64,000 bases of DNA from Trypanosoma brucei (Eukaryota). Shown piece after piece: positions 16,122-44,571 of this stretch. The first letter of the stretch is position 1, and the number at the start of each line of letters is the position of its first letter. The stretch is from assembly GCA_000002445.1 (NCBI GenBank), contig CM000208.1:2336001-2400000 (forward strand), in the 5' to 3' direction. The position numbers and the translations under genes were made by a program. A model generated the notes under the pieces. It did not search any database, was not told the DNA's origin, and was given only the letters and a program-made list of their open reading frames with translations.

Positions 16122-16665
16122 GATTTTTTTCTTGTAGTCGCACAAGGGTTTCGGACGTACCGCTTGTAAATATATAGGGGGGGGGTGTCCAGTTCTTTTT
16201 TTTTTGAGGGTTCGGCGATTAAAGCTCTCAACGATCCCCTTCCTCCCATTTCGTCATTCGCTTTAATTATTTGGGGGCCGCTGGCTACTCTATAATTCCT
16301 GTTCCTGGTTGTTCTACTGTGGTACCATGACACTTCTTGTAGTGTTTACAGATGAGTCTCATCTATACGCACTGCCGCCATATTTTTCGATCTCTCCCAC
16401 TTTCCCTGTTTTCGCCCACCCTCAAGTCTCTCCTCTCCAAAGACGCATCTATATTTACTCTTCTGTATACGTGTGCACACAATTTTTTACACAACTGAGG
16501 TTAAGGTATTGTTGGATCATTGTGGTGAACAATCCTGACGCGTATCGTTGCGCGACGTGGGAAGAGGTCGTATATATATATATATATACTTGGTGAGTGG
16601 CTGTGTGTCTGTTCGTATACGTTTGCGTGGCGCAGCGTGGTACAAACATATATATATATGCGCTG

Positions 16666-19600
16666 ATGAATAAGCTGCTTATCACGCTACATGGCTGTCA
16701 TATAATGCATTCCCCGGGTCTCTCGACCGTTTCCCCTCGCGTATTAATAGTGGTGGATGGTGTGTACGAGTTCGTGGCTCACGGGAAAGCTAGCACCTTC
16801 ACATCCTACTTCAACGAGCTTTTCACAGTTGGTTACATTGACCGCTTAACAGTAGTTGAAGTACTTGTATACAATTCGTCAACCACGGGATGTGGAGACT
16901 ACAACGAACAACAGTTGCTTGGGACATGTCGATTATCCACCGTGTGGTTGTTCCAGGGGAAGACACCTAAGCGGCGACGCCATGTTTTGGCGAACGATGC
17001 CGGCATAGCCGGGACAGTTGAGCTCACTTTGATGCTTGACACCTCTAGGGAAGGTAAAGGCAGCTTTGAAGAAGAGACGAACGAGTGGTGTGCCTCGCGT
17101 TTGGTTCGTTTTCTGATGCACAATGATAAGGGCCGTTTGAGGGATGTAGACCTTTTGCTTTCCACAATGGAGACTGATGGAGCACCACTGAGGCCTCTAG
17201 CATCACCCCCAAAATGCGCAGCTGCTTCCTCTGAGAGTTCGCGAAGCTCTTGCGCGGCTTTTGAAGAATTAATGAGGAACCTGTGCGAGGAGTATCACTG
17301 TGAAGAACCTCCGCAGTGTCGGGTCCGGGTTGCTTTGGAAGGTTGTACCTCTCTTGAAGAAAGTGACAAGCACCACTCATCAAATGTAATTGTGGTGTTT
17401 CGGAGTACAGCCGAGGAGTTCGTGTCGCCGTCAAGGCCGTACACGTCTAACCCTGTCTGGGGATCAACGTTGGGTACGGCCACTTTCGACGTCTGTAACC
17501 CGGAGGACTTTGTGCTTGATGTTATTGTGTACCGCATCACTTCGTCATCGGGTTATGTTGAAGTTGGCCGGGCGCGAATACGTGTTTACATGCTCACAAC
17601 GGAATACTCTTCCAAAAGACAATATTTTATTTTCCGCCATGATAGTTACATAACGCCATGTGTTACAGGCGCCGTCCATATCACAATAAAACCGTTGGGG
17701 TTCGGACTGTCACCGAAAGATGCGGGTGGAACCGCCGACTTGTTCCATGCTCGGTTGAATCGTTTTTTTTACCGCTACGATCGTCGGCGACTGCAAGAGG
17801 TGGATATTATTCTCTACTCTCGCAGGAATAAACTGGATGAATTGATGGACGAATTGGAAGTTTACTACGGTCGTGAACCTGGCACGGCAGTACTGTGTTT
17901 GACTGTGGAGGAGGTGCAATCGTTATTGCATGTTGCATCTACGGACCTCGATGGTGAGGATGTAGTAGTTGTGGTCACAATGGGTAGCCAATCGAACCGT
18001 ACAGACGCTAAGCGAGTGACTGCGAACTCTCGAATAGTTTTTGGCAATGCTTTTCAGATTGACGTTGTTCGAGAAACTGATATGATACGGTTTGAAGTAG
18101 TGAAAGCAGGATGTGAGGACGTTGTGTACGGAAGCGTGGATTTTACTTGCCTCAGAATTCAGAAAGGTGTTGAGAATACCCGGACGCTGTATTTGGTAGG
18201 AGCTGCGGGCACAGAGAAGGCATTTCTAAGTGGAACAATAACAGTTACTTTTTTCAGTGAAAATTTGGGCCAGTCGTACACTGCTGATACAGAATCAGAG
18301 TGCATGTATGCAGGGCGTCTGCGTCGCTATGCGTGTCAGCACGCACCAGAAAAACTGCATCTTGTGGACGTGGCGGTTGCTACTGTTTTCGATACTGAGG
18401 GATTCATGAAGGAAATGAGTCGAGATTATGGCGAAGAGAATCCAACTTATGTGCTGTACATGACAGTATTGGGGTGTCGAAAGCTGAGGAAGCGTTTTGG
18501 GTTTACAATGAGTGCGTACGTTGTCGCTCGTATGGGCGTGGACCGCTACGAGACACGTGTAGTGAGAAATAGTACGAAGCCGGACTACTTTGAATTCTTT
18601 GAGTTTTTTATAGATCAGTTCGCGCACACGGAACTCACCCTAGTAGTTATGGATCAGTACGACATGGGTACCGACAAAGAGGTTGGCCGGACTGTCATTC
18701 CCTTGGAAAATGCAATCCCCGAGCATCAGTACAACCTCTGGTTGCCTCTCATGAAGGATGGGTGCTCCAACTGTGGGTTTGTGGGTGTGAAGTTTGTGGT
18801 AAAGGATCTTCAACTTCGCGACTCGTTGTGTGACCACGTCAAAGCAGGAACCTTCTCAGAGCGTTGCGGCCCTAGACAAGAGGAGCTTACATCGCCAAAT
18901 GAGTCACGACGGGCAACAGGTGTTACCAATTTTTCCAACGCGTTATACCACTTGTTTGGTGGGTGGGGCAAGAGAATATTCCGTGCGCCTCGGTGGCAGC
19001 CGTGGCGGGACGAGTCCAGCAAGGGGTTCTCCAAGCTCAAGGTATCTGAAGGGGTTTCGGGCTGTGAGCATGGATCAGATCACCCAGTGCTTGCGAACAT
19101 CATTGACGACGGCATCTACTCTGCAAGTGAGTTCTTGCGACCCAGAACAGCGAGAACGGCACCCAAGTTATTATCAAATCTTCTTGTTAAACAGCGTGCT
19201 CGTCACACCCTCGTCCCGCAAACACCTAACTCTACCACAGGAAGGCGGTTTTTACATGTACACCTCCACTACTGTGACGACTTGGAAGAGAGGCGTTTAG
19301 TTCCTCCAAGCCCATGTGTGATGCTCGCAACGCTCAGGACAACATACATTTCGAGAACAGCGTTCGAAACTTGTTCACCCCGATATGACGATGTGTTTCA
19401 TTTTCCCATCACTTGCCCAGATGAGGACTTTCTTACCATAACAGTCATGACAGACACGCCGTACGGTAGAAAAACTCTTGGGTTCTGTATGCTCTCCATA
19501 AAAAATGTTTGCTATGGCATGCCTCAAACGCGTTACGTAGCGCTGGTGGTCGCCCCTCATGGATCTGTGGCGCAACAACGTGGTGTGGTGTGTCTCTCCC

Positions 19601-22179
19601 TCCTTAGTGAGAATTTCGGTGTTGCCGTACCGCCACCCCTGGGGAGAGAGTGCAGCTTTCGGCAATGGTTGCAAAGCATCCTCGTGAAGTATGCGCCGAC
19701 GGAGCTGCATCGGCTCGAATGGTACGTAGGCGAGTATTCTGTCAAAGACAACAGAGAGGTGGAAGGCTTCTTCGTTACGAACACATACAAGAGGAGGGGG
19801 AAGGAGGAAGTCAATGTCCATATTTCCGTGGAAACGGTATCAAACTTGCATTGCGATGGTTTGGTCGTTGCCTCTGGTTCGTGTTCGATGACGGCGGAGT
19901 TAGGGGGAAGGACGGTCTGCCGTATCCCCGCTGTGGAGGGAAGCAACGGCTTCTTCAACATTTCAGGGGAATTCGATGTTGTCATCCCTCAACCACTAAC
20001 GCAGACACTGCGCCTTCTTGTGAGCGTCAAGGCAGGCTCAAAACGTAGCCACGGAGAATGTGTCATATCATTCGCGGATGTGCACCGCAAGGCAGCTCGT
20101 GGGCAAGCTCACTACATTGTGGAAGGCCCAGGACTCCCGTCGGCCTCCCCCATTGGTTACGTAACCGTCTCAATGTCCTGTGACCGTTGCGGCAGAGTGG
20201 GGACGCCATCAGATTATGCAGATAGGAGTCTATATACGAGGATGCGTGATTACTATTACTATTACATTCGTGAACGACTTCACGTGGTGAACGTCACTTA
20301 CAGCAAGAAAGTTGATGTGGACAACCATCTGAGAAAGCTGGTGGAGGTGTATGGCCCAGAACCCAGCACCCGTCAACTCCATCTAGAAATTGTGCAGTGT
20401 AATTTTCCAGGCATTGCCGACGGTACTCCCTATTTTGCTCTCGAAGTCGGACTCCTGCAGTATAGGACAGTACCTGTCGCCGACAACCCTGACTCCCATT
20501 TCAAAGGGTCATTTGACATTCATCTTGGATTACCCGAAAAGGATGAACTAAACCTGATAGTGTTTATGAGTCGTGCGTGTGAGTTGCTTGATGTGGAGGT
20601 TGGACGAACCTTGATACCCCTCAGGAACGTCGTGTGCGGGAAGAAAATGCTTTTCCGTCTCCCACTCGTGCGACAGGCTCAGACAAAATATGCTAAAATC
20701 CATGGCTCCGTTGAAGTTTTGCTTTACACCAATGATTTTGGTCTCCCGTCCGAGCAGCAGAGGCACGCTCTGCATCACAGCCTTTGCGATCGAGTACAGT
20801 GGGAGGTTTCTCATTCCAACCCAAAGGACATTCATCGGATCCCCAATTTTCTCGCGGGAATACAGGTGCAAAGCGGGTGGGTTAGCGGTCAAATGGAATG
20901 TAGATCGTTACCTCGGCCTGGCTCAGCGTCAGATAACGCAATCCGTGTTCTCTTTCTTGGGTTTCAATGCCTTCCTGAAAAAGGTGTCTACATAAAAGTG
21001 AAGTTGGATGGCTGTAAGAAGCTTCTACGCACAGGCGACCTGTCGGGGAAGCGGCTTGCTTGCGTCAATGAAGAATTCACCATTGAAGGTTCTGCTGTAC
21101 TGAAAAACACAGTTTTTACGTTGAAGTTAGCAGAAAGTAAGACAAATGAATCGCGCGCGTTATGTTACTGCGACTTCACTCTAGCAGATTGTCCCCCTGG
21201 ATGTGTGTCTAGAAAGTGGCTGCGTCTCTTCGACGACAGGGGCAGGTCTATGGGCCAACTAGGCATTCAGGTGGACGCACCAGCTTCCTCAAGCTCATTT
21301 TTCTCTCGCAGCAGCAGCAACCGGTCCCATCACGACGTGGAGCGAGTCACGGATGATGTCGTGTCACTTCTACAAAAGTACTTGCCGCAAGGGCTGCGGC
21401 GACTCGACCTGATAATTAACCATTCCGATAATGTGAGTGCCGTTCATCGTGTGCTTCGCAAGGAACTGGCACCCAAAGTGCAAGCGACAATATACTGCCA
21501 GGTTCAGCAAATCAGATTGCGAACTCCAGCAAGGATATACCCCCGAGTCGAGTTTTCTTCAGCTGACGAGGTTCAATACGTAACGGAGCGCACATACGGG
21601 GAGTGTATGGTGGACTCAAATACGCCATCCCGAAAGAGAGGGGCCGTTTACCTCCACTTTTCTTCAGTCCGTTTGGATGTGAACGGGGCAGATGCGCTGC
21701 GGATTTCTGTTCATGATGGTGAGGCGAGAGAGGGGTGTGAGAAGTTAGGGAGTGTGGTGCTTTCGTTGCGAGCACTTCTAACCCCGACACTGTACGGCAC
21801 AAATGAGATATTGAGGGCGCCGCTTGTCAAACTGTGGCGTACCGGGATTAAAACACGGGCAGTCGTGGCTGGAACCATAACCTTCCACCTTAGTATCCCT
21901 ATTTTTGAGCGGTACCCAGCGGCGCTATGCCTCTCCGAGATCTTTCCGTGCGCTGTGGACCGAGATGTGATACGATGTTATTTCAACAAAATATCTTCAG
22001 TGCTGCGGTGCCACGATACGGGTTCACTCGTGGACATCCACCGCAAGGTGTTTGAGGAGCTTGTCGTGAAACCAAATGGGTCGGTTGAGCTGCGCAACTT
22101 CCTCCACCAATTAGCGGAACGGTGGGGCGTGGACGTGAGTTCTCTTGACGCCACTTCCCCCGACTGGTCGTTTTGTTGA
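16666..22179 (+). CDS. giant multi-module protein (about 1837 aa) built from repeated C2-like beta segment plus helical module; paralog of 23669..27214
   Basis: The ORF-track start at 16597 is GTG and runs through a (TA)n tract; the first ATG is 16666 (the next is 16705). At least 6-7 copies of a helical module recur, for example SENFGVAVPPPLGRECSFRQWLQSILVKYAPTELHRLEWYVGEY, TNDFGLPSEQQRHALHHSLC, RRRLQEVDIILYSRRNKLDELMDELEVYYGREPG and RERLHVVNVTYSKKVDVDNHLRKLVEVYGPEPS. Each follows a beta-rich segment with the VEVGRTxIPL-type signature seen in C2 domains. Confidence 0.7.
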   Translation: MNKLLITLHGCHIMHSPGLSTVSPRVLIVVDGVYEFVAHGKASTFTSYFNELFTVGYIDRLTVVEVLVYNSSTTGCGDYNEQQLLGTCRLSTVWLFQGKTPKRRRHVLANDAGIAGTVELTLMLDTSREGKGSFEEETNEWCASRLVRFLMHNDKGRLRDVDLLLSTMETDGAPLRPLASPPKCAAASSESSRSSCAAFEELMRNLCEEYHCEEPPQCRVRVALEGCTSLEESDKHHSSNVIVVFRSTAEEFVSPSRPYTSNPVWGSTLGTATFDVCNPEDFVLDVIVYRITSSSGYVEVGRARIRVYMLTTEYSSKRQYFIFRHDSYITPCVTGAVHITIKPLGFGLSPKDAGGTADLFHARLNRFFYRYDRRRLQEVDIILYSRRNKLDELMDELEVYYGREPGTAVLCLTVEEVQSLLHVASTDLDGEDVVVVVTMGSQSNRTDAKRVTANSRIVFGNAFQIDVVRETDMIRFEVVKAGCEDVVYGSVDFTCLRIQKGVENTRTLYLVGAAGTEKAFLSGTITVTFFSENLGQSYTADTESECMYAGRLRRYACQHAPEKLHLVDVAVATVFDTEGFMKEMSRDYGEENPTYVLYMTVLGCRKLRKRFGFTMSAYVVARMGVDRYETRVVRNSTKPDYFEFFEFFIDQFAHTELTLVVMDQYDMGTDKEVGRTVIPLENAIPEHQYNLWLPLMKDGCSNCGFVGVKFVVKDLQLRDSLCDHVKAGTFSERCGPRQEELTSPNESRRATGVTNFSNALYHLFGGWGKRIFRAPRWQPWRDESSKGFSKLKVSEGVSGCEHGSDHPVLANIIDDGIYSASEFLRPRTARTAPKLLSNLLVKQRARHTLVPQTPNSTTGRRFLHVHLHYCDDLEERRLVPPSPCVMLATLRTTYISRTAFETCSPRYDDVFHFPITCPDEDFLTITVMTDTPYGRKTLGFCMLSIKNVCYGMPQTRYVALVVAPHGSVAQQRGVVCLSLLSENFGVAVPPPLGRECSFRQWLQSILVKYAPTELHRLEWYVGEYSVKDNREVEGFFVTNTYKRRGKEEVNVHISVETVSNLHCDGLVVASGSCSMTAELGGRTVCRIPAVEGSNGFFNISGEFDVVIPQPLTQTLRLLVSVKAGSKRSHGECVISFADVHRKAARGQAHYIVEGPGLPSASPIGYVTVSMSCDRCGRVGTPSDYADRSLYTRMRDYYYYYIRERLHVVNVTYSKKVDVDNHLRKLVEVYGPEPSTRQLHLEIVQCNFPGIADGTPYFALEVGLLQYRTVPVADNPDSHFKGSFDIHLGLPEKDELNLIVFMSRACELLDVEVGRTLIPLRNVVCGKKMLFRLPLVRQAQTKYAKIHGSVEVLLYTNDFGLPSEQQRHALHHSLCDRVQWEVSHSNPKDIHRIPNFLAGIQVQSGWVSGQMECRSLPRPGSASDNAIRVLFLGFQCLPEKGVYIKVKLDGCKKLLRTGDLSGKRLACVNEEFTIEGSAVLKNTVFTLKLAESKTNESRALCYCDFTLADCPPGCVSRKWLRLFDDRGRSMGQLGIQVDAPASSSSFFSRSSSNRSHHDVERVTDDVVSLLQKYLPQGLRRLDLIINHSDNVSAVHRVLRKELAPKVQATIYCQVQQIRLRTPARIYPRVEFSSADEVQYVTERTYGECMVDSNTPSRKRGAVYLHFSSVRLDVNGADALRISVHDGEAREGCEKLGSVVLSLRALLTPTLYGTNEILRAPLVKLWRTGIKTRAVVAGTITFHLSIPIFERYPAALCLSEIFPCAVDRDVIRCYFNKISSVLRCHDTGSLVDIHRKVFEELVVKPNGSVELRNFLHQLAERWGVDVSSLDATSPDWSFC

Positions 22180-23089
22180 TGGCGCCGCGCTTTACTGTGA
22201 AAGACTGTTAAGTACATATGTATGTTTATATTGTTTGCAGGGCTCGTGGAACGGTTCGGATGTAAGTGTTTGTGATGTGGTAGTCGTTCGTTTCTGTCAT
22301 GATGTTTAGTAGCGTAAAATAAAGTATTCGTTTATTTATTTGTTGTCCCTTTTTTTAAAAAAAAAATTGTGTAATACCCCTTCTCGCAAAAGTAACGGAA
22401 GAACGGGGCGGTTCTTCCTGAAAGACTGTGAAAATAAAAACAGTACGATACACCGCTGGTGTACAGGGGGAAAGGGGGAAAAAAGGAAAGTCAAGTATGG
22501 TATAGTATTTATTTGTTTGTAGTCTGCTGGCCCCGTGTATTATATGGCAAAACTGAATATAGTGGAACCGTACGTACGGCACTTCGTTCGGTGCCTTTTT
22601 TTTTTTGCGCTGTTTCGTTTATTTGATGCCCTTCATGACTTCTCTTTCCCCCACTGAATCTTACGGTTTTGGCATTACTTACTCGATGGTGGTAACGGGT
22701 TCCGTCATCTTGTCTTTTTATATTTTAAACCTCTTGTTAGCCCGGTTTTCGTTTTTTTCTTTTCTTAAAAAAAAAAAATAATCTAACTCCTGTTTGTGTT
22801 TTTTGGAACAGATCGATGTATGTGGTTGAGGTGTAGAGAGGACAACAGGCACAACAACTTGTGCGATATTACGTGTCGCATGTTAGTTTCCTACCCTTTT
22901 TGTTGCTGTTGTTGTCCTTCACTTCTGTCAGCGGCTTACTTGTTCGTAAAAGTGTCATGGGAGAGGAGAGAGTTCGATTGGAACACTTCCTGATGTGGAA
23001 AACGATTAAGTCTTTTTTCCCCCTTCTGTTCGCTGTGGCTTATTGGTAGACCCCTCATGTGAGCACTTTTATTCTGCTCCCCCTTTGTA

Positions 23090-23230
23090 CTGTTTTCCGT
23101 CTGTGCGAAAACCACTCGTGCCTCTTCTTGTATACTTCGTCATGATACCTTCTTTCTATTTTCTCCTTCTCATTCTTATCATCAATTTACCGTTTCCTTT
23201 CCCCCCTTTTTTTTCGCACTGCCCCCAAAG
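23090..23230 (+). promoter_or_regulatory. unusually long (about 140 nt) polypyrimidine tract upstream of the CDS at 23669
   Basis: cgtgcctcttcttgtatacttcgtcatgataccttctttctattttctccttctcattcttatcatcaatttaccgtttcctttcccccctttttttt. It would give a 5'UTR of about 400 nt containing a purine-rich element (23340-23470). Confidence 0.4.
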
Positions 23231-23668
23231 TGTTCATTTAAACCCCCACTATCACAGTGGTTGTGAACTGAGTGTGTAGAGTGCAGGAGGCGGATAACAA
23301 CAAAAGGGCTCCATCACTGACACTACGCTACCCGCCACCTGTGTTTTGAACGGTACGCACACACATAAGCACACAAGCAGAAAAAGAAAACGAAAAAAGA
23401 AAGGGAGACATTAGGGGTTTCAAAAGGGAGAGTAATTCGAAGAGCAGAGAAGGAAGGGGAACATCACGGCACATATTCCTAGAAGGGCGATTGTTAATAA
23501 TTTGCTCGGACGAGGGAGGGCTACGAGAGGAAGTGAGTGAGACGAACAGAAGTCACATTCTCACTGATAGTGTTGTGCGAGGGTTTTTGTGTTTCAAGAC
23601 AACGAGAATATTGTCCATTTAAGCAGGGTAACACTTCGTCACCCTCGTAGAAATATTTGCAAGTAACC

Positions 23669-26600
23669 ATGAAGGACAGTTATCGCGATCCCAACAGGGC
23701 AAAGAGCTACGCGTCGTCCGCCGATGCCTTTTCTTCTAGTGCGCAACGTTCATGTGCTGTCGGTAGTGCCACCTGGAACGGCTCGCCCTGCGATAATTCG
23801 CCCAGTAGCACATTTATAAGTAGCACCGGAAGAAACACTGGGAAGTTGCATAAGGTGGGGTTTCGGAAAAGAGAAACGACTGCCCCACGTGGTGAAACGC
23901 ATCCGCCGAGGGTCCCAAGAAAGCAGACGCCACCGACTGCGAGGAGCAGGCCGGTGCCCCCTTTGGCGTTGACGCAAACAGGTGCAAGAACAGAACGCGG
24001 TCACAGAATGGATTTGAGGGTACGTGTCGAGGGCGTCAAAAAATTGCTTCCCCCTAATAGCGCATCGAAAGCCCTACCCTCAACCTTCATTATGGTTCAA
24101 ACAGCAACAGGGCGTGGCAAAACGCCGGTAATTTTCAACAACGCTAATCCTCCTTTTAACGACGAGTTCGTGTTTACCGTTAGAGATCCCAAATTAGATG
24201 AAATTACGGTTGTATTAGTCTCGCACACACCATCTGGAAACAAAAAATTGGGACAGTGCGTTCTTTCTCCTGGAAATCTTGTGTGTGGCGAAGAGAAGAG
24301 GCGATGGGTTTCTATTGTCCGCCATCCTGGAACAGATCAAGCTCGCGACTACGCTCCCATGCTACTTAGTATGTATACTGAAGACTTCGGCCTTCGGTGT
24401 GGACCATCAGAAGCGAAAGAAAGTGAATTCCGCGAAAAGCTTCGTGCGCTTCTTAAAAACAACGCACCACGGGAGCTCCACCGTCTCGAGTGGTATGTGG
24501 GAAGTTGCGTAGGTGACTATGATGGTGCTTTTTCTCAGCTGTGCTCAAAGTATCGCAAGTCAAAGGGCACACCTGCGGCGTTTCAGCTTGTCATTAACGC
24601 AGTCTCTGACTTGACCGATGGTAATGGATCACCAAGCGCTTGTGAGACGTGCTGCGTGAAAATTTACGCGGGTCGGGTGAAACGGGTCACCCCAATGGCC
24701 TTGTATCGATCCTCGGCAGTATTTAACGAAGTCTTCAACCTGTCATTAGATGACCCCTTGTCGTCTGGAATAACTCTCTGCGTCTGTTCGCCACGCGGTA
24801 AGATTGGTGAATGCGTTGTCTCTCTGAGAGGGATCCAGAAGGGCGTCGCGAAGGAGCGCACAAATTCTCTTGTTTATGCTGCTGGGACCGGGGATGCAAG
24901 TCTCTGTGGAACCATTTCCTTTACCCTTTACTCACAGACGTTCGGAGTGGAAAATCCCATTGAAGAGGCAGAAGAGAACGCCAGGCGTACTCGGCTGCAG
25001 AACTATCTGTGGAATTATCTCCGAGATGACCTACATCGTCTAGACCCCATTCTATACTCCATCACTGACGTGGATTCCTTCATGAGTGTGTGGACGCGCA
25101 CGTACGGTCCGGAGCCCCGACAACACCTTCTACGGCTCCGAATTAAAAATTTGAGGCTCCTGACCAAACTGAAGAGTCCCGAAGAGTTTACGGTCGTATT
25201 ACGTACAGGACCAAATGCATATCGAACTTCCTGTGTTCGCTACTCACAAGACTTCAGATTCTGTGATGAATTGGTGGTCAGTGTGTGCACTCCATCCGCC
25301 GCCGAGTTCACTTTTATTGTGGTGAAAACATCGGACGTACACGAGGTAGAGATGGGTCGGGCCACCGTGTCCTTTGCAGATATTCCGCAGAGCTCTGTAT
25401 TCAAACGTGATATAATCATCTATGAGGACGCCTTACAGGTCGGCTCCAAAGACTTTGGTACGCTTTTTATTGAGGGGATTACGAACGACTTTGGTCTGCC
25501 GTCGGAAACCTTAACTCCTGAAAGGAGAGAATACTACAGACGACGTGTCGCATCGATTTTGTCCCGCTACAAACCGACTGAGGTATACCGTTGTGACTAC
25601 CTTCTTGGCACCCACTCGGGAATGGAGGAGCAGCTTGTGAGGCGTTTATCAGAGGAGTACGGCCCCGAAACCGGTAACGCGCACGTCAATATCCAAATTT
25701 TGGCAATTAATGACTTCATGCTCTCCTCTCCCTGCTACGTTAAGGTATACGTGGATGACGTTCAGGTACTTAGAACAAAGAGCCACCGCACAGCCCTGAA
25801 TATGCAGTTTGATATATCCCTGAACAACTCCGCAACGCTGCAGATAGAGAATCCCCTCCGCTCGCTACTGAGGTTTGAGTTGATGGAGCCTCGGAGGTTT
25901 CTGCGATCCCGGGTTGTGGGCGTGGCAGAGTTAAGCCTGGTCAAGATGGTACCGAATGAGAAGAATGTGTACCGGCTTCCAGTGTTTAACGCTGAGCGAA
26001 ACGGAGAGGTTGGAACTCTGAGTGTGGAAATAGAATCACCAAGTCTGAGGCACGACGTGTCAGCCATTTTCGACACTCCCCGCGAAGAAGATGACGCCGA
26101 GCTATTCGAAAATGTAATGAAAGATGTAACAACTCTGGTAAGCAAGTACTGCCCTCAGAACTTGCCCCATGTCCAGCCGATGGTGGCCAAGGCAGCGTCA
26201 TTGAGGGATGTCCACCGCGAGCTTAGGGACAAGTTCACACCAAAGCGGGTTGCTTTCACTTTTTACGTACATATTGACAAGCTGGACCTATCGAACCGCG
26301 AGGACATTGAGGCGTATGACGAGGGTCTTATTTCTGTCGAGGCTTACTTCATGAACGAGCGTGTTGTGCAGCCAATGAAGGTAAGTGATGTAAGCAAAGC
26401 AAGGGCGAGTAAGTTGTTTCCCGAAATTCGTTTCGATATCGTTCACCCACACTCATCAGAGCCTGACTGTAGCTTGCCCATACTTGAGATCGTGATGCAC
26501 AAAAAGAACTATAGTACCTTCAAACCCCTTCTAGCTGTTACGAGGCATGGCACTGCTGCTGCAGCGAAACCTCTGAACGTACAAACAACAGAAATGGGCC

Positions 26601-27214
26601 GTGTGGTTCTCTCGGCGCGGGCCCTTCTAACAGAGTGCATGTACTCCCTTGGAGAACCGGTTACTGTAGGTCTTGTCTCTTCAGGGGAACGCGCTCCACA
26701 GGGAGGTACCGTGTTTGGGGACATCGAAAGCTGTCAACGTGCCTACATTGGCGACCTAACGTTGCGCGTGACTGTTCCTTCATTTGAAACCATACCGCGA
26801 TGCTTACAGTTTAGCTCTCACGTCACACGAGATTTTCAACAGGATTACGTCCGTTATCACGCTGACCGAATCTTCAGTCTGTACCGAGCTCACGATCCAT
26901 GGAAGCTGCGTGAATTTTACTACTTGCTCTTCGAGAGGGATGTGGCTTTGGGCAAGTGGCCTCGATCACTACATAATTGGTTGGTAAATTGTATCAAACT
27001 GTATGGACCAGAGGCCCCTGGTACCTATGGACCGCCTCCCAAGCTTCGTTTGGGTTTGAAGGAGTGGGATCAGCAACGAGTCAATAGAACGACGGCGAGT
27101 ACTGCGTGCACATCAAGCGGGTATAACACAGCTCGAGGAAGCAGCTCCGCATTTCCTTCAAACGCATTCAGCGGCAGCGCCAGGCGTTCCCGGAACGGCG
27201 ATCATGGACAGTAG
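23669..27214 (+). CDS. multi-module protein (about 1181 aa), paralog of 16666..22179; Ser/Pro/Arg-rich N-terminus
   Basis: The ORF-track start at 23657 is TTG; the first ATG is 23669. It shares motifs with the upstream gene: NAPRELHRLEWYVGS versus APTELHRLEWYVGEY; TNDFGLPSE identical in both; VVLSARALLT versus VVLSLRALLT; LHRLDPILYS...YGPEP versus LQEVDIILYS...YGREPG. Confidence 0.7.
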   Translation: MKDSYRDPNRAKSYASSADAFSSSAQRSCAVGSATWNGSPCDNSPSSTFISSTGRNTGKLHKVGFRKRETTAPRGETHPPRVPRKQTPPTARSRPVPPLALTQTGARTERGHRMDLRVRVEGVKKLLPPNSASKALPSTFIMVQTATGRGKTPVIFNNANPPFNDEFVFTVRDPKLDEITVVLVSHTPSGNKKLGQCVLSPGNLVCGEEKRRWVSIVRHPGTDQARDYAPMLLSMYTEDFGLRCGPSEAKESEFREKLRALLKNNAPRELHRLEWYVGSCVGDYDGAFSQLCSKYRKSKGTPAAFQLVINAVSDLTDGNGSPSACETCCVKIYAGRVKRVTPMALYRSSAVFNEVFNLSLDDPLSSGITLCVCSPRGKIGECVVSLRGIQKGVAKERTNSLVYAAGTGDASLCGTISFTLYSQTFGVENPIEEAEENARRTRLQNYLWNYLRDDLHRLDPILYSITDVDSFMSVWTRTYGPEPRQHLLRLRIKNLRLLTKLKSPEEFTVVLRTGPNAYRTSCVRYSQDFRFCDELVVSVCTPSAAEFTFIVVKTSDVHEVEMGRATVSFADIPQSSVFKRDIIIYEDALQVGSKDFGTLFIEGITNDFGLPSETLTPERREYYRRRVASILSRYKPTEVYRCDYLLGTHSGMEEQLVRRLSEEYGPETGNAHVNIQILAINDFMLSSPCYVKVYVDDVQVLRTKSHRTALNMQFDISLNNSATLQIENPLRSLLRFELMEPRRFLRSRVVGVAELSLVKMVPNEKNVYRLPVFNAERNGEVGTLSVEIESPSLRHDVSAIFDTPREEDDAELFENVMKDVTTLVSKYCPQNLPHVQPMVAKAASLRDVHRELRDKFTPKRVAFTFYVHIDKLDLSNREDIEAYDEGLISVEAYFMNERVVQPMKVSDVSKARASKLFPEIRFDIVHPHSSEPDCSLPILEIVMHKKNYSTFKPLLAVTRHGTAAAAKPLNVQTTEMGRVVLSARALLTECMYSLGEPVTVGLVSSGERAPQGGTVFGDIESCQRAYIGDLTLRVTVPSFETIPRCLQFSSHVTRDFQQDYVRYHADRIFSLYRAHDPWKLREFYYLLFERDVALGKWPRSLHNWLVNCIKLYGPEAPGTYGPPPKLRLGLKEWDQQRVNRTTASTACTSSGYNTARGSSSAFPSNAFSGSARRSRNGDHGQ

Positions 27215-28846
27215 TTTGCCGGTTGGTTCCCACAGGAAATGGGCAGTTTTGGGGGGAGATTGTGGCTTATGAGTATGCCAGAACGGGTGCGCCACGATGG
27301 AGAAATAACATTAGAAAATCCTACGCCGTCATCCATATATGCGTATGAATGTATATATGTCTGTATAAAAAAAAAATGGGGTGGATGATGCTAGAAGATT
27401 GAATGAGAGATGTAAGACAGGCAGTGTAGGCGAAGCGAGGAGGGCAGGCGAGAGGGTGTGCTCGCACTGCACCCCTGTTTGTGTTCACACTTGTAGTGTA
27501 TGTATCTATATCTGCGACAAATGTACGAATTTTAAATTTCTGACTTTACAGTAGCGCCTTGATGCCTTTTTGGAGTGGAGTGCGCAGGTGAAAAAGAATG
27601 GGGAAGTTGAATGCGGTGGAAGTGCACTTGATGTGTGTGCCTGCGCATACATGTGCGGATGTGGATGTGCATGTGAGAGGTGGTGCGTGGCCGCAATCAG
27701 GATGCTGGAGCGTTTCCCGTTATTTTATCATCCTCTAGGGGAACTCTTTTTTTTTTTTTTTGCCATGCTTCGCATTCGCTATGTGGAATAAGACCGCCAG
27801 TTTACCTTCTCGGTATACTTCACTACCCTTTAGAGCATATGGGTAACCAGCTGAGGATGCACGGGCGAGCTCATGGTTTTGTCCATTTCCCTAAATTGAG
27901 GGTGGATGGGAAAACCAGTTGTCGAATCCAATCTCTCTTTTCTCCCCTCCCCCCCCCAAGTCAGTCCGCTGCGGCGGCACTCAAAATGCAAGTAGCATCA
28001 CGTATGACCTTCTGTTTTCTTCCTTTTTTTTCCTTCAGTTTTTTTTTCCTCCGCTATATGTTCACTTTTTTTTTGTGTGTGTGTGTGCACTGATTGACTC
28101 CGGTAGTGGTGGTTTCATTGAAGCATTTATTCCGTATTTCCTCCTCCTTTCGCTTTGTCAGATCCCTGGTCCTTCAGCGCAAGAACTAAACCGCACCATG
28201 TTTCCCGTTGCGCATTGTTTTTATTGTTTTGTCGCTTGCACTCTCCCTTGTATAGTTTTGTTTGTTTTTTTTTTTGTTTTGTCTCCTTCGCCGCTCCATG
28301 ACCCTTTTCCCCCTTTCTGAATGTGCTTTGCGACTATGGGAAACGAAAGTGTGGGAAATGTACAGCAAAATACGACAGAGTGGTACGTTTAGAAGGAAGG
28401 AAATGGAAAATGCAACCTGTGAGAAAAAGGGGGGAAATGTGCACGACAAGGAAGGAAGAAACCAAGGAGAAGTTGCCTTCATGATAGAAAACTGCTTGCT
28501 ACACGTTACGGATATCTTTTTTAATACTACAATGAGCTACCGAACATGTGTATAAGAGCATCATTTTTCTTCCTGTATTATCAGCTGTTGCGCATCTGAT
28601 GTGATTCTACCCTAACCTCCTTCATTATTTTCTTTTCTTTAGTCACTGATCCTACTTCCTCTGCATCGAGGTTGTTATTTCTGTCTTAACTAATCAACTG
28701 CTCGGGTACTGCGGCCACTCGGGCAGTGCAACACGTGTAAACGTACATAAGCAAATACATTCTTTCGTATATATATATATATATATTCGTATAGTTGTTG
28801 AAGCGGACCTCTTCCTATAGCTTTGTAGGCCAAGAAGGTAGCAAAA

Positions 28847-30559
28847 ATGTATCACTACGAGTACGATGACGACCACTCAACCAACCTCTCGCAAGCAATT
28901 AACGCCAAGTTGATTACGCGTAGGGGTATAACAACAGACAGCCCAGATCCCATTACTCCGGTTTTTTCGTCGACCGCGCCAACTCGCTCATCAACTGGAC
29001 TAACGACTGAATGGATACGACATCAAAAGCTTAGCGGAAGGGCTGTACCCCCGACCCTTGATACTCTAAAGGGGACAGGTAGTGGAAGGAAATACAAGAG
29101 TGTCACAAATTCCCAAGAAAACAATGTGGACCCAAACAGCATTAACCGCGGCACTTTGCTAGTTAACTCATCCTACTCGGCACCTTCACCAAGATATAAC
29201 CACGTCTCTTCAGTGGTAAAAAAGCTGATAGAAGGGAGAATAACGCCCCAAGAGGCGCGTCGTGCAAGTTCCTCTCGTCGTGGCAGCTCACGAACCACCC
29301 GACTGGTTGCCAGTAGCCGATTCGCTCCTGCCGATAGGCCATCAAGCGCCCCGAAACGTCTTCCGATGGGCAGCGGTAGGACTGGTGGGCTGCTGCCACG
29401 TCTAAGAATATCGTCAACACCACACATACCCGTCCGCACGCAGCAATGGATCCCTTCAAACTCAGCAAAACCAGCGACGGCGGAATGCCAAAAAAACATA
29501 TCGCCACGAGGTCCGGCAACCACGCAGTCATCGGGCAGCTCACGAAGGTTAAACATGTATCAAAGGGTGCCACTATCACGACAATGCGACTCTTTTCCGA
29601 GGAAACCAACAACTGTGGAGGAAAAACCGAAGCCCCCTCAGCCATTGTTCAGTCGGGTTCCGAGATGTGCGGCGGATATTCCAGATCATCGGAAGCCCTC
29701 TCCACGACACGATGTACAGTCAAGAAGGCCGTACGTGCCGCAGTCAGGACGTGAGGTACCGAAAGCGCATAAGACACCACTCTCCAGGGCATCCAGTTCG
29801 CCGAAATACAACAGTGCCCGGAGGAGGTACGTGCAGGACAAACAAACCAACGAAACATCTACTATCAGCGGAAGGCAACGAGTTCCTGTGAGTGCAGTAG
29901 ATGTAGGAAGCAGGGAGAAGGCTAACGTCAGCGAAAGGCAACGAGTTCCTGTAAGTGCAGTAGATGTAGGAAGCAGGGAGAAGGCTAACGTCACTGAAAG
30001 GCAACGAGTTCCTGTGAGTGCAGTAGATGTAGGAAGCAGGGAGAAGGCTAACGTCACTGAAAGGCAACGAGTTCCTGTAAGTGCAGTAGATGTAGGAAGC
30101 AGGGAGAAGGCTAACGTCACTGAAAGGCAACGAGTTCCTGTGAGTGCAGTAGATGTAGGAAGCAGGGAGAAGGCTAACGTCAGCGAAAGGCAACGAGTTC
30201 CTGTAAGTGCAGTAGATGTAGGAAGCAGGGAGAAGGCTAACGTCACTGAAAGGCAACGAGTTCCTGTGAGTGCAGTAGATGTAGGAAGTAAGGAGCAAGA
30301 AGACGGACGAGTCACCGCAATTTCTTCGGACTCGAGAGGCGCATTAAGTCAGACAAAGGCGATGGAGACACAAAAAGTCGTCGATCCGTTGTCAACAAAA
30401 GATATAATTTCCCACGACGCGGCTGGTCGTCCCAAACATAAATCTCTTAATGGTGGTTTAGTGATACCACAGGTGGAGGGGATTAAGTCATTACTGCTTT
30501 TTGATATCAAACCACCGAAACTGAGCGAGACTGGCGCTGTTGCCGCCACTGTCGGTTGA
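28847..30559 (+). CDS. basic Ser/Pro/Arg-rich protein containing 7 tandem 21-aa repeats (ERQRVPVSAVDVGSREKANVS/T)
   Basis: ATG at 28847. The composition looks intrinsically disordered. A 63-nt tandem array lies in frame at 29866-30306. The minus-strand ORFs 29686..30315 and 29744..30298 are mirror artefacts of that array. Confidence 0.6.
   Translation: MYHYEYDDDHSTNLSQAINAKLITRRGITTDSPDPITPVFSSTAPTRSSTGLTTEWIRHQKLSGRAVPPTLDTLKGTGSGRKYKSVTNSQENNVDPNSINRGTLLVNSSYSAPSPRYNHVSSVVKKLIEGRITPQEARRASSSRRGSSRTTRLVASSRFAPADRPSSAPKRLPMGSGRTGGLLPRLRISSTPHIPVRTQQWIPSNSAKPATAECQKNISPRGPATTQSSGSSRRLNMYQRVPLSRQCDSFPRKPTTVEEKPKPPQPLFSRVPRCAADIPDHRKPSPRHDVQSRRPYVPQSGREVPKAHKTPLSRASSSPKYNSARRRYVQDKQTNETSTISGRQRVPVSAVDVGSREKANVSERQRVPVSAVDVGSREKANVTERQRVPVSAVDVGSREKANVTERQRVPVSAVDVGSREKANVTERQRVPVSAVDVGSREKANVSERQRVPVSAVDVGSREKANVTERQRVPVSAVDVGSKEQEDGRVTAISSDSRGALSQTKAMETQKVVDPLSTKDIISHDAAGRPKHKSLNGGLVIPQVEGIKSLLLFDIKPPKLSETGAVAATVG
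29866..30306 (+). repeat. 63-nt tandem repeat, 7 copies (last degenerate), near-identical, in frame within CDS 28847..30559
   Basis: Unit cagcgaaaggcaacgagttcctgt[g/a]agtgcagtagatgtaggaagcagggagaaggctaacgt begins at 29866, 29929, 29992, 30055, 30118, 30181 and 30244. The synonymous gtg/gta position alternates strictly between units, and agc/act recurs at units 1 and 5. Confidence 0.9.
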
Positions 30560-41264: not shown

Positions 41265-41961
41265 TTTCTTTGCCAGATTGTATTATTCATGTGTAGGAGT
41301 GAAGATAATGCGGGTATTGTGTTATACCAGCTATCCGCTACAGGATGTGCGAAAAGTAAGTGAATGGAGCGAGTAGCGGTGAGGATTGTTGTGCCGAGTT
41401 TGAGCTTTTTATTATTGTTATTATTATTGTTATTAACTCTGTGAGAACTCACCCCTTTTCCTCCCTCGGGTTAACGTAAAGAGGAGAGAAGCAACCAGCA
41501 ACCCACAGTGTCGTGGGATGTGAAGTTCGAGAAGTGAATTGAAGGGGAAAGATACAAGGCCCTCAACTCCCGTTCACTGAGCAGAACAAAGCAGGGAAGA
41601 TACAACACCTCCATAAGGTTATTTTGATGCTAAACCTATTGTTCCTGTTGTGTTGGATTTGAAGTTTAGCAACTTTGAGTAGTACCAATGAATGAGTTCA
41701 GACTTTTCATCTTGTAATTGTTGTCGCTCGTTTTAATGATGTTGTTTAGTGCAACTCTTCACAAGGTGGTGGAGGTTGAAAGGTGAGCGTGTAAAAATGG
41801 TAACAGTGCCCAAATTCTCAATTGTGTATGAATGTAGGTTGTGTTCTGTCGATGTGAATCAGCTGCCAGCAAACGGAAACGTGGTGTATTCCAAGGGTTA
41901 GAGCAGCCTGGAAAAAAAAAATTCAAAAAAAAAAAAGAAGAACGTTGGTGTGTCTTCAACT

Positions 41962-42025
41962 ATATGTAAATAAATAAATATAAATAAATTAATTAATAAA
42001 TATATATATATATATATATATATAT
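41962..42025. repeat. (TAAA)n followed by (TA)12 microsatellite
   Basis: taaataaataaatataaataaattaattaataaa then tatatatatatatatatatatatat. Confidence 0.9.
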
Positions 42026-42453
42026 GCATGTGTGTTTATGTGCAAACTTGTACCTACAGGTGCATGCACACACAAACATATGTGCGACATTTGCACATTG
42101 TTTAGCGGTAGAGGGGATGGAGAAAAGAAGAAATGCAAGAAAAGAAAAAGAGAAAAAGAGAAAAGCACAAATGGAAACAAGTAATTAATAAAAAGAAAAT
42201 GACGATACTACACTTTGTGCCCATTCACTGTTGTTGGATTTGCTTTGAAGTGACGAAGGCAATTGGTGCGTGAAGTCCCCTTTGGTCTTGAGGTGACTGC
42301 TCTCACCCACAAGATCTGTTTTTTTTTTTTCTTCTGACTCTCTCCTTCTTATTTCCCTTTTTTCTCTTTGCTTTCTTCGGGTAATCTCGTTTTTTTCCTT
42401 TTTTTTTCTTCTTTGTTGGAAACAACAAATCACGGAAACGAAGTCAACGGCAT

Positions 42454-42487
42454 TAATAATAATAAGTATAATAATTATTATTATTAA

Positions 42488-42533
<46 letters not shown>

Positions 42534-42540
42534 TATATAC
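42454..42540. repeat. (ATT)n microsatellite (about 24 units) followed by (AT)n
   Basis: aataataataagtataataattattattattaatattattattatt... then tatatatatatatata. Confidence 0.9.
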
Positions 42541-43036
42541 ATAAAAAAAAATCACCTGGTGTAGTATTTCCATCCCCTTTTTCTTATTTTACGAAATATT
42601 TGGTGGGTTCTGAGTTTGGAAGGAAGTGATATCAGTGACTGGTTTGTTCCCTTCTGTCCTTTTTTTTATTTTCTGTCTTTTGTTTTTTTTTTCCTTCGTC
42701 GACTATTATGTTGTCTGGAAAAGGAGTGACGAAGCGCGGAAGCATGCGATAGGACGAGGGACTTTCGGTAATCTGTTTTTTTTTTCAATCACCTGCTGTT
42801 GCTCCCTGTTATTCGACGATGGAGCAGGGAAAGTTGCGTGTGTTTGTGTCTGTAAGGAAAAAAAAGCTGTGGTAAATTCGGTTGATAAATTTCTCCTCCA
42901 TTCCGCGCGGCAGTTAACAACAATAAAAAAAAATTTTCTGCTCCTTGGGCTTTGACGCCTCAATGCTTGCGCTTCTATCTTGTATAACCACCTGTTCGCG
43001 CTGTTCAATTAAAGAAAAAAAAATGGTGGTGGTGGT

Positions 43037-43515: not shown

Positions 43516-44571
43516 ATGCTGCTCACAAAACTTGCGCCCATGAGGTCTGCAGCACGTCACATGCCGTTACTGTGCATCCCACTTCATACCGCTCGTCACA
43601 CTGCCACTGTGGGTGCGAGCGGCGCCTCTGGGCGTGTAGGGGAGGACCACCGCCACAGTTCATTGGAAGAGACTTTACTTCATCCTCCTTTCATTGGTTC
43701 GTCTTCACGCTTCACGTATGCCTTACCTGCTTTAGACTCCGATGATATAGCGGCTTTGGAGAGGGAAACACTTAACCATCACGAACCAAACTGCTGGAAC
43801 GACTACTGCTGTGTCTCCCTTGTGAAACTGCTCCGCTGGTGTGCCGATAAGTTATTCCGTGAGCGTTACATTCACAGGGCTACAATGTTGAAAGCGATTG
43901 CGCCTGCACCGGCGATGGCTGGGGCCATCGTTGCCAACCTGCGGATGTATTTGAGGAAAAAGGACGCGACATATTTGCCAAGTGACGGCAACTTTTCGTC
44001 AGAGGTTCGAGTGCTAATGGCGCAGATGGAGTCCCACGCCGCACATGTCAATATCCTCTTGTCAATGTGCGAGATAACGACCGTTGAGCGCGTCGCCGCC
44101 GTTCTTCTTTATGGGCTTCATTATTTCATATTTACCCTTCTATTCCTCCTGTATCCGCGAATGGCGTTTCGGCTTATGGGTTACCTTAACGAGGAATCCG
44201 TAGTTATTTGGACGCACATGATAAACGACGTAGAGTTGGGGAAGATTGTTGAGCGACCAATACCTCGTGCGGCGCTTCAGTACTGGGGACTTCATCGTTT
44301 CCACCACCGCCAGAAACAACAATCTCATACAAAGAGCTATGTCACAGAAAAAGAGGAAGAGGGTAGGAGGGTCATGCATAACAATGAAGCCTCTTCTGCC
44401 AACCCCAGTGGTGACGGTGCCGCAGAGAATGGAGGGGAGGATGGAGATGTGTCGAAGCGTGGACTTACGCTGCGTTATATGCTGCTGTTATTGCGCTCGG
44501 ATGAGATGGTCTGGCGCGACTCATGCCACGCGGCTGCGGACGCTATAGACGAAATGCACGAGGTGCAATAA
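43516..44571 (+). CDS. alternative oxidase (AOX)-like protein with non-canonical di-iron motif residues
   Basis: It aligns to the AOX four-helix core: [25 protein letters not shown] against AOX [35 protein letters not shown] against [24 protein letters not shown] against [28 protein letters not shown] against RADEAHHRDVNH. The N-terminal presequence looks mitochondrial ([17 protein letters not shown]). Confidence 0.6.
   Translation: [351 protein letters not shown]

What the first reader, a model, noticed from the sequence alone, without database searches (positions are those of the whole stretch)
29866..30306. Near-perfect 63-nt tandem array inside a CDS shows a higher-order period, suggesting recent block amplification
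Seven 63-nt units encode ERQRVPVSAVDVGSREKANV(S/T). The units are almost identical at the DNA level. A synonymous third-codon position (cct gtg agt versus cct gta agt) alternates g,a,g,a,g,a,g from unit to unit. The Ser/Thr codon agc/act reads agc only in units 1 and 5. That pattern points to a 4-unit (252-nt) block that was itself duplicated, so this is recent expansion or concerted evolution, not an ancient repeat. Repeat number is likely polymorphic and may be collapsed or expanded in the assembly. The host protein (28847..30559) is basic and Ser/Pro/Arg-rich. That is typical of kinetoplastid cytoskeleton- or microtubule-associated repeat proteins, and of immunodominant repeat antigens.
Basis: seen in the sequence. 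Interest (0 to 1): 0.55.

Follow-up and report, generated by a model that had tools for sequence, protein, structure and literature searches.

The report
Known 21-residue repeats of REAP-1
The near-perfect 63-base tandem array is the already published 21-amino-acid repeat domain of REAP-1, a mitochondrial RNA-binding protein of Trypanosoma brucei; its copy number does vary between strains, but the proposed four-unit block duplication is no better supported than simple amplification of a two-unit block.

Summary
There is a 63-nt array, TRF 29872-30295, 6.7 copies, 96% matches, in frame in the ORF 28847..30559.

[quoted passage not shown] It is used as a mitochondrial marker that shows precursor and mature forms. 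It is not a cytoskeletal or surface repeat antigen.

Copy number is polymorphic:
- 4 units in T. b. gambiense and in T. equiperdum.
- 7 units in this window.
- 8 units in the original GenBank protein AAD45351.
- 8 units, by inference, in the TriTrypDB v8.1 model of the same strain. Its listed mass of 64.376 kDa equals the window protein plus exactly one Ser-type unit.

GTG and ACT occur only in TREU927, and the T. congolense ortholog has no repeat. Recent turnover by copying is therefore supported.

The robust higher-order period is two units (126 nt; 1/35 by chance). Once that dimer is granted, the four-unit block rests on a 1-in-3 coincidence, and it needs as many events as dimer amplification plus one conversion.

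Verdict: already known, low interest.

The parts
28847..30559 (+). REAP-1 coding sequence (Tb927.10.9720), 570 aa plus stop
   Evidence: The ORF is. It is 100% identical to P0003 = XP_823194.1/EAN78366.1/Q38A04. The gene id comes from review PMC12936278. The protein is detected by mass spectrometry with 20 peptides and 47.7% coverage.
29870..30289 (+). 63-nt / 21-aa tandem array in codon register: U1-U6 complete (29870, 29933, 29996, 30059, 30122, 30185), U7 truncated (30248-30289)
   Evidence: TRF; unit table; lag analysis. DNA homology extends 5 nt upstream, to 29865.
29890..30268 (+). Synonymous Val-codon third base, one per unit (29890, 29953, 30016, 30079, 30142, 30205, 30268): G,A,G,A,G,A,G. 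This defines a 126-nt dimer period.
   Evidence: Exact enumeration gives 1 of 35 arrangements that alternate. GTG is absent from T. b. gambiense and T. equiperdum.
29930..30247 (+). Ser/Thr codon at the end of each full unit: AGC in U1 (29930-29932) and U5 (30182-30184); ACT in U2, U3, U4 and U6
   Evidence: ACT differs from AGC at two adjacent bases, is identical in four units, and is absent from the other subspecies.
28847..29365 (+). N-terminal 173 codons that are missing from the original 418-aa REAP-1 entry (AAD45351, which starts at M174 = 29366)
   Evidence: Alignment. This stretch holds the best-conserved block shared with the T. congolense ortholog. Its substitution rate is 0.39%, against 1.29% in the upstream intergenic region. 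The chance of 173 stop-free codons is about 1e-4.
29183..29272 (+). Conserved motif SPRYNHVSSVVKKLIEGRITPQEARRASS (aa 113-142), predicted helical
   Evidence: BLASTP against T. congolense TCIL3000_10_8630. AlphaFold2 models helices at 118-128 and 134-142, with low confidence (pLDDT about 52).
30476..30526 (+). C-terminal conserved block EGIKSLLLFDIKPPKLS
   Evidence: It aligns to GVQPLLLFDVEPPRLA of the T. congolense ortholog.
28615..28642 (+). Polypyrimidine tract followed by AG: the likely trans-splice acceptor region for the REAP-1 mRNA (inferred)
   Evidence: There is no ATG between this tract and 28847, and no comparable tract between 28847 and 29366.

Best explanation
The array is the 21-amino-acid repeat domain of REAP-1 (RNA-editing-associated protein 1, Tb927.10.9720). 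REAP-1 is a nuclear-encoded mitochondrial RNA-binding protein of Trypanosoma brucei. The window is T. b. brucei TREU927 chromosome 10.

The DNA units stay almost identical because the array is continually remodelled by copying: unequal sister-chromatid or allelic exchange, replication slippage, and short-tract gene conversion.

In the TREU927 lineage two new variants arose once each, a synonymous GTA>GTG and a two-base AGC>ACT (Ser>Thr). Both were then spread by amplification of a two-unit (126-nt) block. This gave three dimers plus a truncated unit. The middle dimer differs at one Ser/Thr codon.

Copy number changes quickly, from 4 to 8 units among close relatives.

What is shown: the identity of the protein, the copy-number variation, the lineage-private variants, the absence of the repeat from T. 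congolense, and expression of the protein.

What is inferred: the recombination mechanism, and the idea that the repeats act as a multivalent, mildly basic RNA-binding or spacer module. That function rests on my recollection of the REAP-1 literature and was not tested here.
For: Identity and location.
- The protein is 100% identical to XP_823194.1/Q38A04 'RNA-editing-associated protein 1', T. b. brucei TREU927.
- The gene id Tb927.10.9720 and the label 'RNA binding' come from PMC12936278.
- The title of the 1998 description names 'repetitive domains' (reference lists).
- Mitochondrial location is supported by precursor and mature forms on import knock-down (PMC4389251; PMC5436138).
- The protein was detected with 20 peptides.

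Copy number.
- TREU927 has 7 units, DAL972 has 4, T. equiperdum has 4 and AAD45351 has 8.
- The TriTrypDB v8.1 TREU927 model weighs 64.376 kDa, which equals the window protein plus one Ser-type unit. The calculation was calibrated on Tb927.10.9760, listed at 39.673 kDa, the same as the window ORF.

Spread by copying.
- The other subspecies carry only GTA + AGC. GTG and ACT are TREU927-only, and each is present in four units.
- Apparent divergence in the array is 2.4-3.6%, against 0.4% in the flanking coding sequence.

Periodicity and origin.
- Dimer alternation arises in 1 of 35 arrangements by chance.
- The T. congolense ortholog TCIL3000_10_8630 aligns on both sides of the array but has no repeat.
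Against: - The higher-order analysis rests on only two informative sites, so the order of events cannot be resolved.
- The window's unit order may not be the only one for this strain: an 8-unit model exists.
- The role of the repeats in RNA binding was not tested here. The primary REAP-1 papers (PMC1170961, PMC1869032) were not readable.
- The AlphaFold2 model is poor, with mean pLDDT 36.8.
- No Pfam family reaches its curated cut-off.
Confidence: 0.88

Rival explanations
1. A four-unit (252-nt) block, gS-aT-gT-aT, formed first and was then duplicated, the second copy being partial. The true higher-order period would then be four units.
For: At lag 252 there is one internal mismatch in 168 positions (GGA/GAA in U1), plus one at the point where U7 diverges. 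At lag 126 there are 6 mismatches in 294. Exact enumeration of the two variable sites gives joint lag-4 consistency in 1.7% of arrangements.
Against: - Most of that 1.7% comes from the g/a alternation, which is itself a period-2 signal.
- Conditional on three dimers with one variant, the tetramer pattern appears whenever the variant is the middle dimer, a 1-in-3 chance.
- There are fewer than two full blocks (1.7).
- Dimer amplification plus one AGC>ACT conversion needs three events, the same as dimer duplication plus conversion plus partial tetramer duplication.
- The 8-unit TriTrypDB model has three Ser-type units. That count does not fit two copies of the 4-unit block, which would carry 2 Ser-type and 6 Thr-type full units.
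Confidence: 0.3
2. The unit number or unit order in this window is an assembly artefact, or a mosaic of two alleles of the diploid TREU927 genome. The apparent higher-order pattern would then not be a real haplotype.
For: A later model of the same strain's gene (TriTrypDB v8.1) corresponds to 591 aa, one more Ser-type unit than the window.
Against: - The whole array is only about 430 nt, which a single Sanger read can span (my own knowledge of read lengths).
- A collapse would not by itself create a strict g/a alternation.
- The 7- versus 8-unit difference could equally be two true alleles.
Confidence: 0.25
3. The host is a cytoskeleton- or microtubule-associated repeat protein, or an immunodominant repeat antigen.
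For: Only composition: the protein is basic (pI 10.7) and rich in Ser, Arg and Pro, and it carries near-perfect tandem repeats.
Against: - The protein is identical to REAP-1.
- It behaves as an imported mitochondrial protein with precursor and mature forms.
- It belongs to the mitochondrial reference set.
- The only hits beyond the T. brucei group were the T. congolense ortholog and period-matching repeat proteins at 14-44% identity. One of these was inspected and judged a periodic artefact at 18% identity.
Confidence: 0.03
4. The repeats are a functionally neutral, disordered spacer. Their number would drift freely, and RNA binding would reside elsewhere, for example in the conserved N-terminal helix or the Arg/Pro-rich region.
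For: - The repeat is absent from the T. congolense ortholog, while the N-terminal motif and the C-terminal block are conserved.
- Copy number ranges from 4 to 8 with no frame disruption.
- Structure confidence is low.
- Gly/Glu, Asp/Gly and Ser/Thr replacements are tolerated at unit positions.
Against: - The frame and the unit sequence are kept intact in every allele seen.
- As I recall, without verification here, the REAP-1 literature links the repeat region to RNA binding.
Confidence: 0.3

Closest known systems
REAP-1 / KREAP1 (Tb927.10.9720; XP_823194.1, Q38A04; original entry AAD45351/Q9Y0C7; Madison-Antenucci et al. 1998, EMBO J 17:6368)
   Same: The window protein is residue-for-residue identical to the TREU927 entry. 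The 21-aa unit is the same as in the original entry.
   Different: - The original entry starts at M174 of this ORF. It has 8 units, all of the Ser type.
- The window has 7 units, with Thr in four of the six complete units.
- The TriTrypDB v8.1 model for the same strain appears to have 8 units.
T. congolense IL3000 TCIL3000_10_8630 (G0UXH0), the only ortholog found outside the T. brucei group
   Same: It aligns to aa 11-307 at 31% identity and to the C-terminal block. The motif RYNHV.SVVK.LIEGRITP.EAR.ASS is conserved.
   Different: It has no 21-aa tandem repeat. The best single-unit match is not better than shuffled units (p = 0.14-0.39).
Higher-order repeat organisation of tandem arrays (as in alpha-satellite) and concerted evolution of coding minisatellites
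   Same: Neighbouring units differ at fixed sites, while units two apart are more alike. The variants are lineage-private and were spread by copying.
   Different: The array is tiny, at 6.7 units, with only two informative sites. Only the two-unit period is statistically supported.
Kinetoplastid tandem-repeat cytoskeletal proteins and repeat antigens
   Same: Near-perfect in-frame tandem repeats with variable copy number in a basic protein.
   Different: There is no sequence relationship, and the published location is mitochondrial.

Membership tests
REAP-1 (Tb927.10.9720) | Sequence identity to the reference protein | tested here: met
   100% identity over 570 aa to P0003 = XP_823194.1/EAN78366.1/Q38A04.
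REAP-1 (Tb927.10.9720) | Tandem 21-aa repeat domain | tested here: met
   Seven units of ERQRVPVSAVDVGSREKANV(S/T). The same unit is present in AAD45351.
REAP-1 (Tb927.10.9720) | Syntenic position on chromosome 10 | tested here: met
   The same neighbours occur in T. b. gambiense and T. equiperdum chromosome-scale records: a C2-domain gene upstream, and a 333-aa gene plus an AAA ATPase downstream. The neighbour Tb927.10.9760 matches the window ORF 43516-44568 by exact mass.
REAP-1 (Tb927.10.9720) | Mitochondrial location and RNA binding | not testable with these tools
   Literature only: precursor and mature forms on ATOM knock-down, and listing as 'RNA binding'.
Higher-order repeat with a 4-unit block | Units one block apart are more alike than neighbouring units | tested here: inconclusive
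   Lag 252 gives 2/168 mismatches and lag 63 gives 14/357. However, lag 126 already explains the alternation, and the extra support for lag 252 amounts to a 1-in-3 coincidence.
Higher-order repeat with a 4-unit block | At least two complete copies of the block | tested here: not met
   There are 6.7 units, which is 1.7 blocks.
Higher-order repeat with a 2-unit block | Strict alternation of unit types along the array | tested here: met
   G,A,G,A,G,A,G at the Val codon; 1 of 35 arrangements.
Kinetoplastid cytoskeletal / microtubule-associated repeat proteins and repeat antigens | Homology to a known member, or cytoskeletal or surface location | tested here: not met
   An exhaustive phmmer search of 1.84 billion representatives found only REAP-1, the T. 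congolense ortholog, and period-matching repeat proteins at 14-44% identity. One of these was inspected and is a periodic artefact at 18% identity. Published data place the protein in the mitochondrion.
Catalogued RNA-binding domains (RRM, KH, RGG, PPR and others in Pfam) | Match above the family's curated score | tested here: not met
   The only Pfam hit is TX13_rpt at 20-22 bits, against a cut-off of 40.3. There is no PDB relative.

The most novel reading that the evidence does not exclude
The repeat domain may be a T. brucei-specific addition to an older, fast-evolving protein found in African trypanosomes. On this reading, copy number (4 to 8) differs between subspecies and probably between the two TREU927 haplotypes, and it tunes how many RNA molecules or sites REAP-1 can hold.

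Separately, the classical 418-aa REAP-1 used in earlier biochemistry would lack a 173-residue N-terminal region. That region carries the only strongly conserved motif of the family.
Probability: 0.3. Interest if true: 0.35.

Novelty: already known. Interest (0 to 1): 0.15.

Why it matters
It matters little beyond housekeeping. The array is a published feature of a well-known marker protein. Three points are useful in practice.
- The REAP-1 repeat number is not fixed. It seems to differ even between releases of the reference strain, which affects predicted mass, peptide mapping and primer or probe design.
- The window's unit order should not be read as proof of a 252-nt duplication.
- The genome ORF extends 173 codons upstream of the original REAP-1 start. 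That extension holds the only motif strongly conserved with T. congolense, which is relevant to anyone expressing or tagging the protein.

Tried and rejected
- Single 'proto-unit' in the T. congolense ortholog. An apparent DVG..AN resemblance was seen, but the best local alignment scores no better than shuffled units (p = 0.14-0.39).
- Degenerate older units upstream of the array. An xRVPxS motif recurs near aa 239, 269 and 295, but it is not significant (p about 0.08).
- Distant homologs of the repeat. Sixteen hits match the repeat region only, at 14-44% identity. The best of them (P0005) was inspected and is a period-21 artefact at 18% identity. Three others were read but not compared.
- Profile search with a T. 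brucei + T. congolense alignment found no further orthologs.
- Pfam gave nothing above the curated cut-offs. The precomputed tag PF18244 on P0002 was not reproduced.
- The PDB sequence search found nothing.
- AlphaFold2 gave a low-confidence model, mean pLDDT 36.8. I therefore ran no fold search, because its matches would be meaningless.
- Rfam and tRNA scans of the window found nothing.
- The bacterial promoter/terminator scan is irrelevant for this eukaryote and found no more sites than expected from shuffles.
- Minus-strand ORFs across the array (209 and 184 aa) are a by-product of a stop-free repeat. All 19 ORFs of at least 250 aa lie on the + strand.
- The primary REAP-1 papers could not be read.
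- Exact-sequence look-ups for the TREU927 and AAD45351 proteins returned no contigs.

Full report
**Observation**

The region was read directly. Tandem Repeats Finder reports a single strong array at 29872-30295: period 63, 6.7 copies, 96% matches, no indels, score 785. The repeat finder places copies exactly 63 nt apart from 29865.

The array lies in frame in the ORF 28847..30559, which is 570 aa. In codon register the units start at 29870. Six are complete. The seventh keeps only 14 residues before it diverges. U1 starts with Gly (GGA) instead of Glu (GAA).

- The third base of the Val codon reads G,A,G,A,G,A,G.
- The last codon of the unit is AGC in units 1 and 5 and ACT in units 2, 3, 4 and 6.

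The protein is basic (pI 10.7) and rich in Ser, Arg, Val and Pro.

**What it is**

The word-indexed protein search found two clusters, both named RNA-editing-associated protein 1 of Trypanosoma brucei. Cluster members include XP_823194.1/EAN78366.1/Q38A04 from T. b. brucei TREU927. That entry is 100% identical to the window protein over all 570 residues. The window is therefore TREU927 chromosome 10, and the gene is REAP-1.

A 2026 review lists REAP-1 as KREAP1, 'RNA binding', Tb927.10.9720. [quoted passage not shown] I could not open that paper or the 2007 null-mutant paper.

Two import studies use a REAP-1 antibody as a mitochondrial marker. Both report that unprocessed precursor accumulates when the outer-membrane translocase is depleted. 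The protein is also in their mitochondrial reference set and was identified with 20 peptides at 47.7% coverage. So the gene is expressed, it is not a pseudogene, and its product is not a cytoskeletal or surface repeat antigen.

All 19 ORFs of at least 250 aa in the window are on the + strand, as expected for one polycistronic unit. The long minus-strand ORFs across the array are a by-product of a stop-free repeat.

**Comparison with relatives**

I fetched the orthologous loci of T. equiperdum (L001) and T. b. gambiense DAL972 (L002). Both have four units, and every unit carries GTA and AGC. T. b. gambiense adds its own GGA and GGT variants. The original GenBank protein AAD45351 has eight units, all of the Ser type. 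Copy number is therefore 4, 4, 7 and 8.

GTG and ACT are private to TREU927, yet each sits in four units. ACT differs from AGC at two adjacent bases, and no intermediate codon is seen. That pattern is only explained by one origin followed by copying.

Apparent divergence from the other subspecies is 2.4-3.6% in the array, against 0.4% in the flanking coding sequence. This is what spread of a few variants by copying produces.

An exhaustive phmmer search of 1.84 billion representatives found one true ortholog outside the T. brucei group, T. congolense TCIL3000_10_8630. It aligns to residues 11-307 and to the C-terminal block but has no repeat. A single-unit match there is no better than chance. 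A profile search added nothing further. The other hits match the repeat region only, at 14-44% identity. The best of them, P0005, is a period-21 artefact at 18% identity.

**Higher-order structure**

Mismatches by lag are 14/357 at 63 nt, 6/294 at 126, 10/231 at 189 and 2/168 at 252. Exact enumeration shows that strict G/A alternation arises in 1 of 35 arrangements. Consistency of both variable sites at lag 4 arises in 1.7% of arrangements.

Written as dimers, the array is [g S a T][g T a T][g S a T] followed by a truncated g unit. Once the dimer is accepted, the four-unit reading only needs the single variant dimer to be the middle one of three, which is a one-in-three chance.

By my count of events, two histories are equally parsimonious at three events each:
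- Two dimer duplications plus one AGC>ACT conversion.
- One dimer duplication, one conversion and one partial tetramer duplication.

The two-unit period is therefore supported. The 252-nt block duplication is possible but not established.

**Assembly question**

The ImportOmics tables give the theoretical mass of the TriTrypDB v8.1 TREU927 model of Tb927.10.9720 as 64.376 kDa.
- The window protein weighs 62.111 kDa.
- Adding exactly one ERQRVPVSAVDVGSREKANVS unit gives 64.376 kDa.
- As a calibration, the neighbouring gene Tb927.10.9760 is listed at 39.673 kDa, identical to the window ORF 43516-44568.

So another release of the same strain's gene has eight units with three Ser-type units. This is either the second allele or a correction of the assembly. 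In either case the unit order in this window is not the only one on record for this strain, which weakens any fine history read from it.

**Mechanism**

The evidence for turnover by copying is listed above. The process itself is inferred: unequal exchange or replication slippage changes the unit number, and short conversion tracts move variants between units.

Each unit has four basic and three acidic residues. The AlphaFold2 model is of low confidence, with mean pLDDT 36.8 and about 50 in the repeats, which it draws as strand pairs. No Pfam family reaches its curated cut-off and no PDB relative was found. I recall that the REAP-1 literature describes binding to pre-edited mRNA and a role in mitochondrial RNA stability, but I could not verify here which part of the protein binds RNA. 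That the repeats give multivalent RNA binding is therefore a hypothesis. The rival is that they are a neutral disordered spacer.

**Side finding on the start codon**

The original 418-aa entry begins at M174 (29366), but several lines favour the start at 28847:
- The frame is open from 28847, and the chance of 173 stop-free codons is about 1e-4.
- A polypyrimidine tract with an AG lies at 28615-28642. No ATG occurs before 28847, and there is no comparable tract inside the extension.
- The extension evolves as slowly as the rest of the coding sequence (0.39%), against 1.29% in the upstream intergenic region.
- The extension contains the best-conserved motif shared with T. congolense, aa 113-142, which is predicted helical.

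One point remains unresolved. The N-terminus MYHYEYDDDH is acidic, whereas the sequence after M174 looks like a mitochondrial presequence.

**Verdict**

The feature is already known, and interest is low.

Noticed in passing
window 28847-29365 (and 29366): The original REAP-1 entry (AAD45351, 418 aa) starts at M174, but the ORF is open for 173 codons further upstream. That extension holds the motif best conserved with the T. congolense ortholog (aa 113-142). Its N-terminus is acidic, while the sequence after M174 looks like a mitochondrial presequence.
   Followed up: partly
window 29870-30289, versus the TriTrypDB v8.1 model of Tb927.10.9720: The mass listed for the same strain's gene model in a 2017 proteomics supplement (64.376 kDa) equals the window protein plus exactly one Ser-type unit. 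Two releases, or two alleles, of TREU927 therefore differ by one repeat.
   Followed up: yes
window 29555-29770 (aa 237-307): A weak xRVPxS-like motif recurs three times upstream of the array (QRVPLS, SRVPRC, PYVPQS). It hints at older degenerate units but is not significant (p about 0.08).
   Followed up: yes
window 28768-28787: A (TA)n microsatellite lies about 60 nt upstream of the REAP-1 ATG, within the predicted 5' UTR.
   Followed up: no
window 41409-42693: A cluster of AT-rich microsatellites ((ATT)17, (AT)15, a 10-mer and a 12-mer) sits in the low-GC intergenic stretch (GC 0.41-0.44) between the HECT-domain gene and the alternative-oxidase-like gene.
   Followed up: no
window 43516-44571: This 351-aa ORF corresponds to Tb927.10.9760 ('alternative oxidase' in TriTrypDB). 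Its calculated mass matches the published table exactly, and it served as the calibration for the mass argument.
   Followed up: partly
P0002 (Q9Y0C7): The protein database carries a precomputed Pfam tag, PF18244.7, on the original REAP-1 entry. hmmscan did not reproduce it even at E <= 10.
   Followed up: partly
window 16597-27214: Two large neighbouring ORFs (1860 aa and 1185 aa) each carry two C2 domains, a possible tandem pair of related genes just upstream of REAP-1.
   Followed up: no
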